This document shows, one piece after another, positions 19,440-56,173 of a stretch of DNA of 64,000 nt. Positions within the stretch are counted from its first letter, which is position 1. Each line of letters opens with the position of its first letter. The translations under genes and the position numbers were made by a program. Source of the DNA: Cyanobacteria bacterium LVE1205-1 (GTDB lineage: Bacteria > Cyanobacteriota > Cyanobacteriia > CAIUCS01); assembly GCA_041879355.1 (NCBI GenBank), contig CP089922.1, positions 2,912,498 through 2,976,497 of the forward strand. Reading direction: 5' to 3'. A model generated the notes under the pieces. The model did no database searches, was not told the DNA's origin, and saw nothing but the letters and a program-made list of their open reading frames with translations.

Positions 19440-20478
19440 AAAACAAAATCGCCAGTGAAATGGGGATTCACGCAACCCAGATTACTCAATGGAAAAAACA
19501 GGCTCAGGAAGGACTCAAGGAGATCTTTGCGGATCGCCGAGGGAAGAGCCAGAGCCAGGAACCCTTAATTGAGAACCTTTACCAGAACATTGGTCGGCTC
19601 CAAGTGGAACTGGAGTGGTTGCAAAAAATCTGGTCTTACCTCTTGAATCAAAGCGGGAACTCATTGAACCCGCAAACCGAGAGATCAGCATTGTGCGTCA
19701 GTGCGAATTGCTGGGACTCAATCGAAGTAGCGACTACTACGAAGCAGCCAGGGAAAGCTCACATAAGGAGTACCTGATGGGAAAGTTGGATGAGCAGTAT
19801 ACCCAAACTCCCTTCTACAGGGTATTGGGAATGACGGAAGTCCTGCGAGCCCAAGGAGAAGAGGTCAATCCTAAACAAGTCCGTCGTCTACTCAGGGTAA
19901 TGGGTTTAGAAGCTATCTATCCCAAACCCAAAATCTCATCGCTAGGTGAGAATAGTCGTCGCTATCCCTATCTGCTCAGGGAAAAAGCCATTGAGCGTCC
20001 GAACCACGTTTGGAGTACTGACATCACATACATTCCACTGGACAAGGGATTTATTTACCTTGTAGCGGTGATTGACTGGTACAGCCAGTATGTCCTCTCA
20101 TGGGAAGTCTCCAATACCCTGGATGTCCACTTTTGTCTGGATGTTCTGGAAAGTACTCTCTCTCAAGGGATGCCAGAGATTTTCAATACCGACCAGGGCA
20201 GCCAATTTACCAGTCTTGCTTTTACTGACCGTCTACTCAAAGGAGGGATAACAATCAGTTAGGATGGGCGTGGTCGAGCCCTAGACAACATTTTTGTGGA
20301 ACGGATTTGGCACTCATTGAAATACGAGGAGCTGTACCTAAAGTCCTACAGGTCTGTGCCAGAGGCAATTCAAGGGATTGGGGACTATTTCAGATTTTAT
20401 AACCACGATCGTTTACATCAGTCGTTGGATTATCAGACACCGGCTATGGTTCACAGAAAAGGCAATGCCTCCTTGTAA
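19440..20478 (+). mobile_element. IS3-family insertion sequence remnant. orfA is 5'-truncated, and orfB (DDE integrase) is internally frameshifted.
   Basis: ORF 19460-19777 is an orfA leucine-zipper part (GIHATQITQWKK...LQVELEWLQK). ORFs 19615-20262 and 20296-20478 are the DDE core (HVWSTDITYIP...DNIFVERIWHSLKYEE). About the first 30 aa of orfA and the left inverted repeat are missing. Confidence 0.75.
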
Positions 20479-20518: not shown

Positions 20519-20640
20519 ACCAGCAAATACCTTACAAGGAGGTGATGTAATAATGTAACACCAACAACACATGCACTGCTAAGCGAGATTACTTCTTAAA
20601 TTCACTCTTTTTCTGTCTTGACATTGGGGAGTACCATGGG
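20519..20640. repeat. 120-bp repeat element, copy 1. It carries an AGGAGG ... ATG-TAA start-stop motif.
   Basis: About 80% identical to 33537-33655. It begins CCTTACAAGGAGGTGATGTAATAATGTAACA and ends TTGGGGAGTACCAT. Confidence 0.5.
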
Positions 20641-20774
20641 GGGAGGTTGCTTAAAGAGAGGAGTATTAAAGTATTAAGGATGTTAGTCGGTGGTGGCGGT
20701 GATTCTTGTTCCATTAATTAACCAGCGAAATTCAATAACATAAAAATAGACCAAATTAGAGGAAAAAATCATCT

Positions 20775-21404
20775 ATGGCAACTACATCCGAAGACGTATG
20801 GCGACTTTTAGCCGAATTAGCAACTGCTCAAGCTGAATTAACTGCTTCTCAAAAAGAAACTGACCTACTATTGAAGGAAGTCAGTCAACAACAGAAGGAA
20901 AACGAGCGACGACAACAGGAAAATGCCCAACAACAGAGGGAAAATGCCCAACAACTCAAAGAATTAGGACGGCAAATTGGTGGACTTGGTGCCAAATTCG
21001 GCAGCTTTACCGAAGGACTTGCCCTTCCTTCAATGGAAACGATTCTCAGACAACGGTTGGGTATGGAAGTGATCAGTCCCAGTGTGCGAGTGAGTAAAGA
21101 TGGAAAACACCTAGAAATTGATGTTCTTGCCTATACTAATGGTGAGCTAAATACTGCCTATATCGTCGAGGTTAAAAGTCATGGTAGAGAGGAATCCATT
21201 ACACAATTAATAAGTATTTTGCAACGGTTTCGCAGCTTTTTCCCTGAACACAAAGATAAAAAACTCTATGGCATATTAGCGGCGGTGGATTTATCCCCAG
21301 AATTACGGGAAAAAATTCTACAAGAAGGGTTTTATGTGGCTCGGATTCATGACCAGGTATTTGAATTAGATATTCCCGATACTTTTCAACCTCAAGCTTA
21401 TTAA
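20775..21404 (+). CDS. Paralog 1. N-terminal coiled coil plus C-terminal Hjc-like PD-(D/E)xK nuclease-fold domain (possibly DUF3782-type). Function unknown.
   Basis: 209 aa. The N-terminus is heptad-rich with (QQQRENA)n. The C-terminus reads HLEIDVLAYTNGELNTAYIVEVKSH, matching D-x15-E-x-K of PD-(D/E)xK nucleases. Confidence 0.6.
   Translation: MATTSEDVWRLLAELATAQAELTASQKETDLLLKEVSQQQKENERRQQENAQQQRENAQQLKELGRQIGGLGAKFGSFTEGLALPSMETILRQRLGMEVISPSVRVSKDGKHLEIDVLAYTNGELNTAYIVEVKSHGREESITQLISILQRFRSFFPEHKDKKLYGILAAVDLSPELREKILQEGFYVARIHDQVFELDIPDTFQPQAY
20911..20951 (+). repeat. In-frame 21-bp tandem repeat (CAACAGAGGGAAAATGCCCAA), 2 units
   Basis: It encodes (Q)QQRENA within paralog 1. The same array has 4 units in paralog 2. 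Confidence 0.8.
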
Positions 21405-21504
21405 AACATCAAAGGCGATCGCTTTCACCCTGATGTTGTGAGGGATGATTGCTTGTATTTAGCGGTAAATATCCTTTCAATACCCAATATCAAGAACAAT
21501 CACC

Positions 21505-21659
21505 CTGGTTGACTGACAAAAGTTGTACGCCCTCACCCCCAACCCCTCTCCTAGGGGGCGAGGGGAGCCGAGCCACCCCTCCGCTTCCCTCGCCCATCGG
21601 GCGAGGGCTAGGGTGAGGGCTTTCAGGGTTTTGGCTGAGAAGTTTTGTCAGTCAATCAG
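21505..21659. mobile_element. MITE family A, copy 1. 17-bp TIRs CTG(G/A)TTGACTGACAAAA; 9-bp TSD ACAATCACC at 21496-21504 and 21660-21668.
   Basis: The TIRs were read directly. The internal sequence is a long GC-rich palindrome (CCCTCACCCC...GGGTGAGGG). It is absent from the otherwise identical downstream region of paralog 2. Confidence 0.7.
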
Positions 21660-21901
21660 ACAATCACCTTTTTTGTTTCCATGCAATTAGTTTCTCCAGC
21701 GAGTGGGGTTAATTGACAATGGACAATAGATAACTATTCACTATTCACCAAAAAGGCGATCCCAGGGGGGAGGTTGCTTAAAGAGAGGAGTATTAAAGTA
21801 TTAAGGATGTTAGTTGGTGGTGGCGGTGATTCTTGTCCCATTGATTAACCAGCGAAATTCAGTAACATAAAAATAGACCAAATTAGAGGAAAAAATTATC
21901 T

Positions 21902-22573
21902 ATGGCAACTACATCCGAAGACGTATGGCGACTTTTAGCCGAATTAGCAACTGCTCAAGCTGAATTAACTGCTTCTCAAAAAGAAACTGACCTACTATTG
22001 AAGGAAGTCAGTCAACAACAGAAGGAAAACGAGCGACGACAACAGGAAAATGCCCAACAACAGAGGGAAAATGCCCAACAACAGAGGGAAAATGCCCAAC
22101 AACAGAGGGAAAATGCCCAACAACTCAAAGAATTAGGACGGCAAATTGGTGGACTTGGTGCCAAATTCGGCAGCTTTACCGAAGGACTTGCCCTTCCTTC
22201 AATGGAAACGATTCTCAGACAACGGTTGGGCATGGAAGTGATCAGTCCCAGTGTGCGAGTGAGTAAAGATGGAAAACACCTAGAAATTGATGTTCTTGCC
22301 TATACTAATGGTGAGCTAAATACTGTTTATGTCGTCGAGGTTAAAAGTCATGCTAGAGAGGAATCCATTACACAATTAATAAGTATTTTGCAACGGTTTC
22401 GTAGCTTTTTCCCTGAACACAAAGATAAAAAACTCTATGGCATATTAGCGGCGGTGGATTTATCCCCAGAATTACGGGAAAAAATTCTACAAGAAGGGTT
22501 TTATGTGGCTCGGATTCATGACCAGGTATTTGAATTAGATATTCCCGATACTTTTCAACCTCAAACTTATTAA
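21902..22573 (+). CDS. Paralog 2 of the coiled-coil / PD-(D/E)xK-like gene (tandem duplicate)
   Basis: 223 aa, near-identical to 20775-21404 including about 135 bp of upstream sequence. It differs by 2 extra 21-bp repeat units and a few substitutions (A->V, I->V, G->A next to the EVK motif; A->T at the C-terminus). Confidence 0.6.
   Translation: MATTSEDVWRLLAELATAQAELTASQKETDLLLKEVSQQQKENERRQQENAQQQRENAQQQRENAQQQRENAQQLKELGRQIGGLGAKFGSFTEGLALPSMETILRQRLGMEVISPSVRVSKDGKHLEIDVLAYTNGELNTVYVVEVKSHAREESITQLISILQRFRSFFPEHKDKKLYGILAAVDLSPELREKILQEGFYVARIHDQVFELDIPDTFQPQTY
22037..22120 (+). repeat. In-frame 21-bp tandem repeat, 4 units (1 imperfect + 3 perfect)
   Basis: GACAACAGGAAAATGCCCAA followed by 3x CAACAGAGGGAAAATGCCCAA. 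Confidence 0.8.
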
Positions 22574-22935
22574 AACATCAAAGGCGATCGCTTTTGGTCT
22601 GATGTTGTGAGGGATGATTGCTTGTATTTAGTAGTAAATATCTTTTCAATTAGTTTCCCCAGCGAGTGGGAACCAGATACTCCAGCAATCGGAACTGACG
22701 TTGAATATGAATGGACAACATTATCTCCGCCTTTCCAATCACTCCCAAAACCAATATAGTTTATACTATCAACCAATGAATACTGAATTTATTAAGAAAT
22801 TTAATATATACACGGACACTTTATAGTATTAACACGGTTTAATTTAAGGCTGATTGGGTTCAGGGGTTAAGTTTAACTTGATTAAAAAAGCGATTGCCCT
22901 AGGAGTCAACCATCAAAGCTGGGATTCTAAAACAG

Positions 22936-24086
22936 TTATTCCATCAACGCTTCTTTCAATGCCTCAATAATCCGAGTATTAGCTTTGGGAAAGGGGAAAT
23001 CGGTTAATTGCTCTAAGGTTACCCAGCGGATTTCATCACATTCTAGGGGTTGGGGCTCCCCACTCAAATATTGACAATGGTGGACATATAACGTAACCCA
23101 AAAGTGGCTATAGGTATGATCAATGGTTATCAGGGGATCCCCCACTGTCACCAGAATGCCTAATTCCTCTTGGATTTCCCGATGAATGCATTCCTCTACG
23201 GTTTCTCCGGGCTCAATTTTACCTCCAGGGAATTCCCATAAACCGCCTAACAACCCCCCTTGACGACGGCGATCGATTAAGATTTCACCATTCTGGTTTC
23301 GGATAACAGCAACCCCAATGAATTTATGGGGAAGAGTTTGTCTTACTTTGGCTGACGGTATTTCCATCGTTTTTCCTAGAATATGGGCTTGACAGTGGGA
23401 TTGCCATGGGCAACTGGAACAATTGGGATGTTTGGGCAGACAAACTATGGCTCCCAAATCCATTAAGGCTTGGTTGAAATCACGGGGTTGATCCTGAGAT
23501 AACAATTGGTCTGTCAATTTCCAGAGGTCAGGGATAGCTTGATTGACGGGAACAGGCAATGCGATGAGTCGTGCTAAAACTCGTTTGACATTAGTGTCTA
23601 AAATAGATACAGGTTGATTATAAGCACTACTCAAAATGCCTCCTGCTGTTGTTCGACCGATTCCCGGCAAGGTCAATAAGGATTGGAGGTTGGGGGGACT
23701 TCACCAGTATGGCATCGAACCATCTGCTGGGCAGCTTGATGAAGATTGCGGGCACGGGCATAATACCCTAACCCTTCCCATGCTTTTAATACCTGTTGTT
23801 GACTGGCATTGGCTAGACTGATGAGTGTAGGAAATTCAATCAACCAACGATGAAAATATGGAATTACTGTTTTTACCTGGGTTTGCTGTAACATGATCTC
23901 AGAAATCCATATTTTGTATGGATCTTGATTGTGCCGCCATGGCAGATCCCTCCCAAATAGGGTATACCACTGAAGCAATGATTGTTGCAAGTGGGGGATG
24001 GAAGTAGCGTTTAACTGCACTTTATTCATAACAGTTAATTCCTCCCCTGCGGATTCCCTCCCGAGAAATAGTTCCAGAGTTTTCAT
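22936..24086 (-). CDS. mutY: A/G-specific adenine DNA glycosylase MutY (HhH-GPD plus C-terminal NUDIX domain). Frameshifted in a G6 run at 23692-23697.
   Basis: N-terminal part (LLQWYTLFGRDLPWR...ISEIMLQQTQV). C-terminal part has the 4Cys FeS loop (CLPKHPNCSSCPWQSHC) and a NUDIX box (GLWEFPGGKIEPGETVEECIHREIQEELG). The start was chosen at MKTLELF, because the upstream 21 codons of the ORF lie inside a MITE. Confidence 0.8.
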
Positions 24087-24102
24087 AATATGAGTTGCTG
24101 AG

Positions 24103-24256
24103 CTGATTGACTGACAAAACTTCTCAGCCAAAACCCCGAAAGCCCTCACCCTAGCCCTCTCCCGATGGGAGAGGGAACCGGAGGGTGGATCGGCTCCCCT
24201 CGCCCCCTGGGAGAGGGGTTGGGGGTGAGAGCGTACAACTTTTGTCAGTCAACCAG
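24103..24256. mobile_element. MITE family A, copy 2 (inverted relative to copy 1). 9-bp TSD GTTGCTGAG at 24094-24102 and 24257-24265.
   Basis: TIRs CTGATTGACTGACAAAA / TTTTGTCAGTCAACCAG, with an internal GC-rich palindrome homologous to 21505-21659. Confidence 0.7.
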
Positions 24257-24365
24257 GTTGCTGAGTTTGGTGGTACCACTTCACAGCAAAAGTAGCATAC
24301 TATAATTTCAGGTATTCCTCTAATAAATATAAATACCGAAAACGGATGTTAATACGTTTATTTTT

Positions 24366-56020: not shown

Positions 56021-56110
56021 GGTGCATCCCAATTTTGCAGCCCTCACCCTAAATCCCTCTCCCTTTTTGGGAGACGAGGTTAGGGGATGAAGGCAAACGT
56101 GCAAAATTAG
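56021..56110. repeat. MITE family B copy (right TIR truncated)
   Basis: GGTGCATCCCAATTTTGCAG ... GAAGGCAAACGTGCAAAATT. Confidence 0.5.
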
Positions 56111-56173
56111 AATATGTTTTTAACCTTAACCCTAAGTCTCCACAGACTGAATGTCCAATTACATGAAAGCAGC

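What the first reader, a model, noticed from the sequence alone, without database searches (positions are those of the whole stretch)
21496..21668. MITE family A: about 155 bp with 17-bp TIRs and 9-bp target-site duplications, in two copies
Copy 1 (21505-21659, TSD ACAATCACC) and copy 2 (24103-24256, TSD GTTGCTGAG, opposite orientation) share the TIRs CTG(G/A)TTGACTGACAAAA and an internal long GC-rich hairpin. Perfect 9-bp TSDs and absence from the sister duplicate indicate recent transposition. A 9-bp TSD suggests mobilisation by an IS1/IS630-unrelated transposase present elsewhere in the genome. Copy 2 supplies a spurious 21-codon N-terminal extension to mutY, and potentially a transcribed hairpin in its 5' region.
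Basis: seen in the sequence. Interest (0 to 1): 0.55.

Follow-up and report, generated by a model that had tools for sequence, protein, structure and literature searches.

The report
IS4-type cyanobacterial MITE, two copies
Two copies of a 155-bp non-coding "hitch-hiker" transposon (a MITE) carry the same end sequences as a 1.3-kb IS4-family insertion sequence found in other cyanobacteria; one copy landed recently just upstream of the DNA-repair gene mutY. It is a real mobile element of a well-known, ordinary kind.

Summary
Copy 1 (21505-21659, +) and copy 2 (24103-24256, -) are 95% identical. Similarity stops exactly at the 17-bp inverted ends CTGRTTGACTGACAAAA, and each copy is flanked by a perfect 9-bp duplication.

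Six contigs from 98%-identical relatives carry a precise empty site for copy 2: one GTTGCTGAG and no element. This shows a recent insertion.

The same ends, including an asymmetric 18th base, bound 1321-1361-bp insertion sequences in Nodosilinea, Synechocystis PCC 6803 pSYSM, Acaryochloris and others. These have 9- or 10-bp duplications and encode a DDE transposase. It hits Pfam DDE_Tnp_1, best matches NCBI's IS4 model, and is distantly collinear with IS10 transposase.

Further family-A copies exist elsewhere: four more sites at 94-98% identity, and at least 12 sites of a 174-bp variant, mostly with perfect 9-bp duplications. Pooled duplications give GNTNNNANC, which resembles the Tn5 target.

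No transposase lies in the 64-kb window, so a partner in this genome is untested. The sister duplicate is not a clean empty site. The GC-rich hairpin core is unrelated to the IS interior and also occurs without these ends in other bacteria.

Verdict: a genuine MITE, a new member of a known kind, of low interest.

The parts
21496..21504 (.). Left target-site duplication of copy 1 (ACAATCACC)
   Evidence: Identical 9-mer at 21660-21668, directly abutting the element ends (D15, 6).
21505..21659 (+). MITE family A copy 1, 155 bp, in the spacer between two tandem DUF3782 genes
   Evidence: 95% identical to copy 2 from end to end. 94-98% identical to copies in L153 and L172-L175.
21505..21521 (+). 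Copy 1 terminal inverted repeat, 'G-side' end (CTGGTTGACTGACAAAA followed by G)
   Evidence: Its first 21 nt are identical to one end of the full-length IS in L105.
21529..21620 (+). GC-rich hairpin core of copy 1: outer inverted repeat CCCTCACCCC/GGGTGAGGG plus inner hairpins CCCTCKCCC-N-GGGMGAGGG
   Evidence: Fold; repeats I5 and D3. The core matches other cyanobacteria and some proteobacteria without these TIRs.
21643..21659 (-). Copy 1 terminal inverted repeat, 'C-side' end (CTGATTGACTGACAAAA followed by C)
   Evidence: Its first 20 nt match one end of the IS in L082, allowing for the R position.
21660..21668 (.). Right target-site duplication of copy 1 (ACAATCACC)
24094..24102 (.). Left target-site duplication of copy 2 (GTTGCTGAG)
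   Evidence: Relatives L117, L118, L120, L121, L122 and L126 carry this 9-mer once (GAGTTGCTGAG in four, GAATTGCTGAG in L121/L122) and no element.
24103..24256 (-). MITE family A copy 2, 154 bp, inverted relative to copy 1. It lies in the divergent spacer between mutY (-) and a DPRP photolyase-related gene (+), 16 nt upstream of the mutY ATG at 24086
   Evidence: Absent from six relatives that are 98% identical in the flanks.
24257..24265 (.). Right target-site duplication of copy 2 (GTTGCTGAG)
24087..24149 (-). Spurious 21-codon upstream extension of the mutY ORF. It starts at a GTG inside copy 2 and reads through the element end and the duplication
   Evidence: ORF 23673-24149. The JGI gene call of 137 aa starts at the ATG.

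Best explanation
[quoted passage not shown] Each carries only the two ends that a transposase recognises, CTGRTTGACTGACAAAA, wrapped around a GC-rich hairpin core. The same ends belong to a roughly 1.32-kb insertion sequence of the IS4 family, with IS10-like size, CT ends and 9-bp duplication. That IS encodes a DDE transposase and occurs in many non-heterocystous cyanobacteria and on Synechocystis and Acaryochloris plasmids.

The likely mechanism is that such a transposase, supplied in trans, binds both MITE ends, excises the element and inserts it at a staggered 9-bp cut. Repair of that cut produces the 9-bp duplication.

Shown here: the anatomy, the true insertion of copy 2 since divergence from 98%-identical relatives, a multi-copy family, a full-length IS with identical ends and the same duplication length, and a shared target preference. 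Inferred: the cut-and-paste chemistry (by analogy with Tn10/Tn5), mobilisation in trans, and any effect on mutY expression.

The two window copies differ by 5% while the host differs from MITE-free relatives by only 2%. They therefore probably came from different source copies, which implies more copies in this genome.
For: - Exact boundaries, 17-bp TIRs and two perfect 9-bp duplications.
- A precise empty site for copy 2 in six related contigs, which are 98% identical in flanking DNA.
- Full-length elements with the same TIRs: L077 (1323 bp, duplication GCTTGATAC), L082 (1543 bp, GGTGCGGCA), L105, L095, L059, Synechocystis pSYSM (L127, 1321 bp) and Acaryochloris pREC4 (L128, 1361 bp, 10-bp duplication).
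- The asymmetric base 18 (G at one end, C at the other) is shared by the IS and the MITE, with up to 21/21 identity to IS ends.
- The transposase hits PF01609 DDE_Tnp_1 above its cut-off. Its best NCBIfam match is 'IS4 family transposase'. It aligns collinearly with IS10/ISVsa5 transposase through D, D and E.
- Size, CT ends and 9-bp duplication match the IS10 subgroup row of Table 1 in PMC2266710.
- More family-A copies: L153, L172/173, L174 and L175 at 94-98% identity, plus at least 12 sites of a 173-176-bp variant, mostly with perfect 9-bp duplications.
- Among 79 TIR pairs in all loci, 33 have exact 9-bp duplications, 6 have 10 bp and 1 has 8 bp.
- 24 unique duplications give a symmetrised GNTNNNANC.
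- A family-A MITE (L100) and the end of an IS (L032) occur in the same Nodosilinea MAG.
Against: - No transposase homologue and no further TIR lie in the 64-kb window. The rest of the source genome could not be searched, so an active partner in this organism is not shown.
- The MITE interior is unrelated to the IS interior; only about 20 nt at each end match. It is therefore not a simple internal-deletion derivative.
- The transposase scores below NCBI's IS4 cut-off (112 against 152 bits). It has Q in place of the K of the YREK motif. Its similarity to IS10 is weak: 19% identity, E = 0.004.
- No empty site was found for copy 1; the sister duplicate lacks 206 nt rather than 164.
- No transposition assay exists.
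Confidence: 0.9

Rival explanations
1. The copies are inert fossils. They were inserted by an IS4-type transposase that is no longer in this genome or visited only transiently, so the family is not currently mobile here.
For: No transposase or further TIR lies in the window. Several full-length IS copies elsewhere are frameshifted or interrupted: L059, L082 and L127.
Against: Copy 2 inserted after divergence from relatives that differ by only 2%. Both duplications and all four TIRs are intact. Only about 64 kb of a genome that includes a 659-kb contig was examined.
Confidence: 0.25
2. The elements are REP/REPIN-like palindromes spread by a RAYT (Y1) transposase, or by some process acting on the GC-rich hairpin core. 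On this reading the TIRs are incidental.
For: The core occurs without these TIRs in Pseudanabaena (inside a methyltransferase CDS), in Leptolyngbya BL0902 and in Sulfitobacter. A related single-hairpin element sits at window 56026-56113.
Against: Similarity between the copies runs through and stops exactly at the TIRs. The missing segment in relatives is exactly TIR-to-TIR plus 9 bp. REPINs are not known to make 9-bp duplications (my own knowledge). Other MITEs with the same TIRs have quite different cores yet the same 9-bp duplication.
Confidence: 0.03
3. The sequence is a functional structured RNA or terminator that was duplicated with its surroundings, not a mobile element.
For: The fold is very stable. 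Three base pairs show compensatory changes across 19 family members. Copy 1 lies just downstream of a gene.
Against: There is no Rfam match at E below 0.05 apart from chance miRNA hits. No terminator- or promoter-like site lies in either copy. The flanks of the two copies are unrelated. The two copies are in opposite orientations. There is a precise empty site with a target duplication. Covariation is weak, with a covariation term of about 0.
Confidence: 0.02

Closest known systems
IS4 family, IS10 subgroup (IS10/Tn10; De Palmenaer, Siguier & Mahillon 2008, PMC2266710) as the autonomous partner type
   Same: The partner IS is 1321-1330 bp (subgroup range 1200-1350), has 5'-CT ends and mostly makes a 9-bp duplication. 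It encodes a single DDE transposase of 369-382 aa with PF01609, collinear with IS10/ISVsa5 transposase through D-D-E and Y-x2-R-x3-E.
   Different: It shares only 19% identity with IS10 transposase and falls below the NCBIfam IS4 cut-off. The K of YREK is Q in all four cyanobacterial copies aligned. Some members make 10-bp duplications. Its hosts are cyanobacteria and Chloroflexota rather than proteobacteria. The sources I could read annotate it only as 'transposase', with no IS name.
Tn5/IS50 (IS4 family, IS50 subgroup)
   Same: Both have CTG ends and a 9-bp duplication. The symmetrised target profile G1/T3/A7/C9 resembles the Tn5 consensus GNTYWRANC, which I cite from my own knowledge of Goryshin et al. 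1998.
   Different: No sequence-level hit to any solved transposase, Tn5 included, at E up to 1. The partner IS is shorter than the 1350-1550 bp given for the IS50 subgroup.
Nezha (Zhou, Tran & Xu 2008) and Muzha (Chen et al. 2009), MITEs of Anabaena variabilis / Nostoc PCC 7120
   Same: All are cyanobacterial MITEs of about 130-170 bp with TIRs shared with a full IS (ISNpu3-like for Nezha), flanking direct repeats, a very stable predicted fold, and recent mobility inferred from empty versus filled sites (PMC3184786).
   Different: The one Nezha copy documented in text I could read has a 10-bp repeat (CATTATCTAC) and is 138 bp (PMC6042816). The host here is not a Nostocales member but a Leptolyngbya/Oculatellaceae-like 'Synechococcales' lineage. 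I could not obtain the Nezha, Muzha or ISNpu3 sequences, so identity is neither shown nor excluded.
Chunjie (Geobacter uraniireducens MITE)
   Same: TIRs of about 21 bp, 9-bp direct repeats and a stable fold (PMC3184786).
   Different: Chunjie is A+T-rich, 178-235 bp and from a deltaproteobacterium. No sequence relation was tested.

Membership tests
MITE (prokaryotic miniature inverted-repeat transposable element) | Small (well under about 500 bp) and non-coding | tested here: met
   155 and 154 bp. The only ORFs are short mechanical ones that run out into the flanks.
MITE (prokaryotic miniature inverted-repeat transposable element) | Terminal inverted repeats at the exact limits of inter-copy similarity | tested here: met
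   17-bp CTGRTTGACTGACAAAA at all four ends, and similarity ends there.
MITE (prokaryotic miniature inverted-repeat transposable element) | Target-site duplication, and an empty site in related genomes | tested here: met
   Both copies have perfect 9-bp duplications. Copy 2 has a precise empty site in six relatives. Copy 1 has no clean empty site.
MITE (prokaryotic miniature inverted-repeat transposable element) | Multiple dispersed copies | tested here: met
   Two copies in the window. Four further sites at 94-98% identity: L153, L172/173, L174 and L175. At least 12 sites of the 174-bp variant. The copy number in the source genome itself is unknown.
MITE (prokaryotic miniature inverted-repeat transposable element) | An autonomous element with the same TIRs and the same duplication length | tested here: met
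   L077, L082, L105, L095, L059, L127 and L128. These are all in other organisms; none lies in the 64-kb window.
MITE (prokaryotic miniature inverted-repeat transposable element) | Mobilisation in trans by that element's transposase | not testable with these tools
   This needs a transposition assay. The only supporting observation is co-occurrence of an IS end (L032) and a MITE (L100) in one Nodosilinea MAG.
IS4 family (partner IS) | DDE transposase of the DDE_Tnp_1 type | tested here: met
   PF01609 at 30.6 bits against a cut-off of 23. D, D and E align with IS10 D97, D161 and E292.
IS4 family (partner IS) | Reaches a curated IS4 family model | tested here: inconclusive
   NF033591 is the best hit (E = 2.5e-32, 112 bits) but falls below the curated cut-off of 152.
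IS4 family (partner IS) | Complete Y-(2)-R-(3)-E-(6)-K motif | tested here: inconclusive
   Y, R and E are present with the right spacing. The K position is Q (YGLRFDIEETFLDDQ) in L077, L105, L095 and L128.
IS4 family (partner IS) | Duplication of about one helical turn (8-13 bp), against 4-6 bp in IS701, ISH3 and IS1634 | tested here: met
   33 TIR pairs with exactly 9 bp, 6 with 10 bp and 1 with 8 bp. Criteria are from PMC2266710.
IS10 subgroup of IS4 | 1200-1350 bp, 5'-CT ends, 9-bp duplication (Table 1 of PMC2266710) | tested here: met
   1321-1330 bp (1361 in L128), CTG ends, mostly 9 bp.
IS10 subgroup of IS4 | Transposase clusters with IS10-like transposases | tested here: inconclusive
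   Only a pairwise comparison was done: 19% identity over 296 aa, E = 0.004. No phylogeny or clustering against ISfinder was possible.
Nezha / ISNpu3-related MITEs | TIR and sequence identity with Nezha or ISNpu3 | not testable with these tools
   The papers (PMID 18035045, PMC2950511, PMC2527708) are not held. The reference copy NC_007413:2978180-2978317 lies outside the readable collections. A full-text search for the TIR found no relevant paper.

The most novel reading that the evidence does not exclude
Family A is a chimera. Its GC-rich double-hairpin core (outer CCCTCACCCC/GGGTGAGGG, inner CCCTCKCCC-N-GGGMGAGGG) would be a separate, very widely distributed module that spreads by its own route. 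It occurs without these TIRs in Pseudanabaena (inside a coding sequence), in Leptolyngbya and even in alpha-, beta- and gammaproteobacteria. On this reading it was captured between minimal IS4-type ends, perhaps because a self-pairing core brings the two ends of a very short element together for synapsis. The 20-nt GTAGCTTGCTTCCCGGAGG insert, which appears once in the 174-bp variants and twice in the 195-bp variants, hints that still smaller units move within these MITEs.
Probability: 0.25. Interest if true: 0.45.

Novelty: new member of a known kind. Interest (0 to 1): 0.2.

Why it matters
- **Annotation.** The finding explains a spurious 21-codon extension of mutY and marks two intergenic segments as mobile DNA rather than host regulatory sequence.
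- **Strain marker.** The copy-2 insertion is a clean presence/absence marker separating this strain from 98%-identical relatives.
- **mutY expression.** Copy 2 sits 16 nt upstream of the mutY start codon. If transcription starts upstream of the element, it places a hairpin of about -89 kcal/mol in the leader. That could alter expression of an anti-mutator gene, but this is untested.
- **Reusable profile.** The work links a widespread and, in the sources I could read, unnamed IS4-type IS of cyanobacteria and Chloroflexota to a set of MITE families with varied cores. It gives a profile for finding them: the TIR, base-18 asymmetry, a 9-bp duplication and the GNTNNNANC target.
- **Scope.** None of this changes what is known about how MITEs work.

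Tried and rejected
- **Rfam.** Only sub-threshold chance matches to miRNA families, so no known RNA family.
- **BLAST against plasmids.** No full-length copy. Only the GC-rich core matched, which is what first showed that the core and the TIRs have separate distributions.
- **Sister DUF3782 duplicate as an empty site.** Rejected. It lacks 206 nt bounded by CAAT repeats, so it does not show the pre-insertion state.
- **Exact-protein look-ups of both DUF3782 proteins.** They returned only the source contig, with a near-duplicate place not shown, so copy 1 has no empty site.
- **Initial Nostoc/Anabaena guess (my assumption from HIP1 and the repeat style).** Rejected. The best relatives are a 'Synechococcales' MAG at 95% and an Oculatellaceae MAG at 71%.
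- **Transposase in the window and in loci L131-L168.** None found.
- **Solved structures by sequence.** No hit at E up to 1.
- **Promoter and terminator scan.** Nothing in either copy. The counts did not exceed those from shuffles.
- **Covariation over 19 family members.** The structure is conserved, but only 3 pairs show compensatory changes and the covariation term is about 0. This says nothing about function.
- **Literature.** The Nezha, Wolk 2010 and Elhai 2008 papers are not held. Full-text searches for the TIR and for core motifs found nothing relevant. A search on Synechocystis ISY names did not name the pSYSM element.
- **mutY and DPRP as pseudogenes.** Rejected as the likelier reading. 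Both frameshifts are G6-versus-G7 homopolymer differences from a 98%-identical relative.

Full report
**Observation.** Copy 1 occupies 21505-21659 and copy 2 occupies 24103-24256 in the opposite orientation. Aligned, they are 95% identical over 155/154 bp, and the similarity stops exactly at the terminal bases.

The 17-mer CTGRTTGACTGACAAAA is found four times in the 64-kb window even with three mismatches allowed, and only at the four element ends. Each copy is bracketed by a perfect 9-bp direct repeat: ACAATCACC for copy 1 and GTTGCTGAG for copy 2. The interior is 61% G+C in a 44% G+C window. It folds into a long hairpin of -97 and -89 kcal/mol, z = -9.4 and -6.9. Rfam has no family for it.

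**Proof of insertion.** Downstream of the second DUF3782 gene the sequence lacks 206 nt (21482-21687) bounded by CAAT, not the 164 nt of element plus duplication.

A much better control exists. The neighbouring DPRP protein identified close relatives at 95% protein identity, labelled as a 'Synechococcales' MAG. The next best hit is Oculatellaceae at 71%, so the host is not a Nostoc. Contigs carrying that protein were recovered. They are 98% identical to the window in flanking DNA.

All six that were aligned read ...ATATGAGTTGCTGAG|TTTGG... at the copy-2 site (L121 and L122 read GAATTGCTGAG). That is one copy of the 9-mer and no element. The window differs by exactly the 154-bp element plus a second GTTGCTGAG. 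Copy 2 is therefore a true transposition that happened after about 2% divergence.

The two window copies differ from each other by 5%. They are therefore unlikely to be parent and daughter, which implies other source copies (inference).

**The autonomous partner.** Most were Leptolyngbyaceae, Nodosilinea, Elainella and Xenococcaceae, with some Chloroflexota.

- In Nodosilinea nodulosa PCC 7104 (L077), two inverted TIRs lie 1323 bp apart. They are flanked by the 9-bp repeat GCTTGATAC and enclose a 382-aa ORF.
- Further full-length copies are L105 (1322 bp), L095 (1325 bp, which is a whole contig), L059 (Moorena, frameshifted) and L082 (1543 bp, duplication GGTGCGGCA).
- Synechocystis PCC 6803 plasmid pSYSM carries a 1321-bp copy with a split ORF, and Acaryochloris marina pREC4 carries a 1361-bp copy.
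- The IS and the MITE share not only the 17-bp TIR but also the asymmetric next base: G at one end and C at the other. Identity to individual IS ends runs up to 21/21 nt. Beyond that the interiors are unrelated.

**The transposase.**

- It matches Pfam DDE_Tnp_1 above the curated cut-off.
- Its best NCBIfam model is 'IS4 family transposase', at 112 bits, which is below the curated 152.
- I recalled an IS10 transposase sequence from memory. Before using it I checked it: it is 100% identical to database copies annotated 'IS4-like element ISVsa5 family transposase'.
- It aligns collinearly with the cyanobacterial protein at 19% identity over 296 aa, E = 0.004, through the two D residues and the IEETF glutamate.
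- The Y-x2-R-x3-E spacing is kept, but the final K of YREK is Q in all four copies aligned.
- Element size (1321-1330 bp), CT ends and a 9-bp duplication match the IS10-subgroup row of Table 1 in De Palmenaer et al. 2008 (PMC2266710).
- Public records call the protein only 'transposase' or 'Transposase DDE domain'.

**The family elsewhere.**

- A metagenome scan with the family-specific left end (TGACTGACAAAAGTTGTACGC) gave 38 loci.
- Most carry a 173-176-bp variant at 12 or more distinct sites. Of 29 TIR pairs, 17 have perfect 9-bp duplications and 8 have a single mismatch.
- L153 carries a 155-bp copy that is 98% identical to copy 2 at a third site.
- A search with a peptide translated from the element found three small called ORFs. 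Their contigs hold three further insertions at 94-97% identity. One of these has the perfect duplication CCATGTGCC.
- Full-length relatives at 81-83% identity occur in Nodosilinea, Tildeniella and Spirulina.
- Other MITEs share the TIRs but have quite different cores.
- Over all loci, 33 TIR pairs have exact 9-bp duplications, 6 have 10 bp and 1 has 8 bp.
- Twenty-four unique duplications give a symmetrised profile of G1 (69%), T3 (54%), A7 (54%) and C9 (69%). This resembles the Tn5 target GNTYWRANC, which I cite from my own knowledge.
- In one Nodosilinea MAG, a family-A MITE (L100) and an IS right end at a contig edge (L032) occur together.

**Mechanism.** The best-supported account is a non-autonomous element moved in trans by the IS4-type transposase of the 1.32-kb IS. 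By analogy with Tn10 and Tn5, this would be cut-and-paste with a 9-bp staggered target cut; that step is inference from established knowledge.

What remains untested is whether this genome holds a partner.

**Consequences for mutY.**

- The ORF list extends mutY by 21 codons from a GTG inside copy 2. The JGI gene call does not use this extension, so it is an artefact of mechanical ORF listing.
- The element lies 16 nt upstream of the ATG at 24086, in the divergent spacer shared with the DPRP gene.
- No promoter- or terminator-like site lies within either copy.
- A structured leader in the mutY transcript is possible but unsupported.
- The apparent split of mutY and the truncation of DPRP are one-base differences in G-runs relative to a 98%-identical relative. 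They are most likely homopolymer sequencing errors.

**The core.** The GC-rich core matches sequences that lack these TIRs:

- a tandem pair in a Leptolyngbya BL0902 plasmid;
- an insertion inside a DNA methyltransferase CDS in Pseudanabaena;
- the bchY-bchZ spacer of Sulfitobacter.

A related single-hairpin element with different flanking inverted repeats lies at window 56026-56113. The MITE therefore looks modular: IS4-type ends around a widely shared palindromic module. This is the basis of the 'novel case', which I rate as unlikely to be more than a curiosity.

**Comparison and verdict.** The element meets every testable criterion of a prokaryotic MITE. It resembles the published cyanobacterial MITEs Nezha and Muzha in size and logic (PMC3184786). 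I could not retrieve their sequences to test identity; the one Nezha copy described in accessible text has a 10-bp repeat (PMC6042816).

It is a genuine, recently active MITE and a new member of a well-known kind. It is useful for annotation and as a strain marker, but it is not surprising. Interest: 0.2.

Noticed in passing
window 24025-24088: A 57-bp segment bounded by the 7-bp direct repeat TTCATAA is present in the window and in relative L118 but absent from L117, L120, L121, L122 and L126. It adds 19 codons (MKTLELFLGRESAGEELTV) and a new ATG to the 5' end of mutY. It predates the MITE insertion, because L118 has it but not the MITE. It may be another tiny insertion.
   Followed up: partly
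window ~23692 (mutY) and ~25617 (DPRP gene); also ~24271: mutY is split into ORFs of 158 and 246 aa, and the DPRP gene is truncated (435 against 516 aa in relatives). Each is caused by a single missing G in a G6/G7 run relative to the 98%-identical L118. Several other genes in the source contig are also split: amidase, NMT1_2 and GATase_3. This pattern points to homopolymer sequencing errors rather than pseudogenes.
   Followed up: partly
window 20638-22670: A DUF3782 gene is present as a near-tandem duplicate (209 and 223 aa, 91-98% DNA identity). The second copy has two extra QQRENAQ repeats (42 nt). The first copy's downstream region carries an extra 42 nt bounded by CAAT, and MITE copy 1 inserted into that segment.
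   Followed up: partly
window 19460-20478: Fragmented IS3-family transposase: an orfA-like ORF and an rve integrase-core ORF in several pieces. It is unrelated to the MITE's partner, since IS3 elements make 3-4 bp duplications (my own knowledge).
   Followed up: no
window 56026-56113: A different small palindromic element. It has a single GC-rich hairpin (CCCTCACCCTAAATCCCTCTCCC...GGGAGA) related to the MITE core, flanked by an imperfect 14-nt inverted repeat containing TGCAAAAT.
   Followed up: partly
L170 (Pseudanabaena galeata pPg_01) 201-298; L171 (Sulfitobacter alexandrii plasmid) 201-330; L169 (Leptolyngbya BL0902 plasmid) 201-297 and from 357: The GC-rich double-hairpin core occurs without the CTGRTTGACTGACAAAA ends. 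It lies inside an annotated DNA methyltransferase CDS, in the bchY-bchZ spacer of an alphaproteobacterium, and twice in tandem in a Leptolyngbya plasmid. Weaker matches occur in Cupriavidus and Thiothrix.
   Followed up: partly
L133, L136, L138, L140 and others (174-bp variants); L137 7699-7893 and L168 4568-4762 (195-bp variants): The 174-bp family-A variants differ from the 155-bp form by a roughly 20-nt insert, GTAGCTTGCTTCCCGGAGG. The 195-bp variants carry a second, similar insert at another position in the element. This suggests a very small unit that inserts within the MITE.
   Followed up: no
L077 3273-4421 and the homologous transposases in L105, L095 and L128: In the transposase of the partner IS, the last residue of the IS4-family YREK motif is Q instead of K (YGLRFDIEETFLDDQ) in all four copies aligned, although the elements make 9-10-bp duplications like canonical IS4 members.
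   Followed up: partly
L014, L020, L033, L064, L112, L128: Six elements with these TIRs, including the full-length Acaryochloris IS, have exact 10-bp rather than 9-bp duplications. The stagger of the target cut is therefore not strictly fixed in this IS group.
   Followed up: no
L008, L022, L031, L033, L036, L037, L042, L045, L074, L094, L098 (Chloroflexota/Anaerolineae); L055 (Sporomusaceae); L060 and L093 (Methylumidiphilus); L069 (SAR324); L109 (Brevibacillus): Exact copies of the 17-bp TIR, several as short TIR pairs with perfect 9-bp duplications (for example L074 and L094), occur well outside the cyanobacteria. This suggests horizontal spread of this IS/MITE group. MAG binning errors were not excluded.
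   Followed up: no
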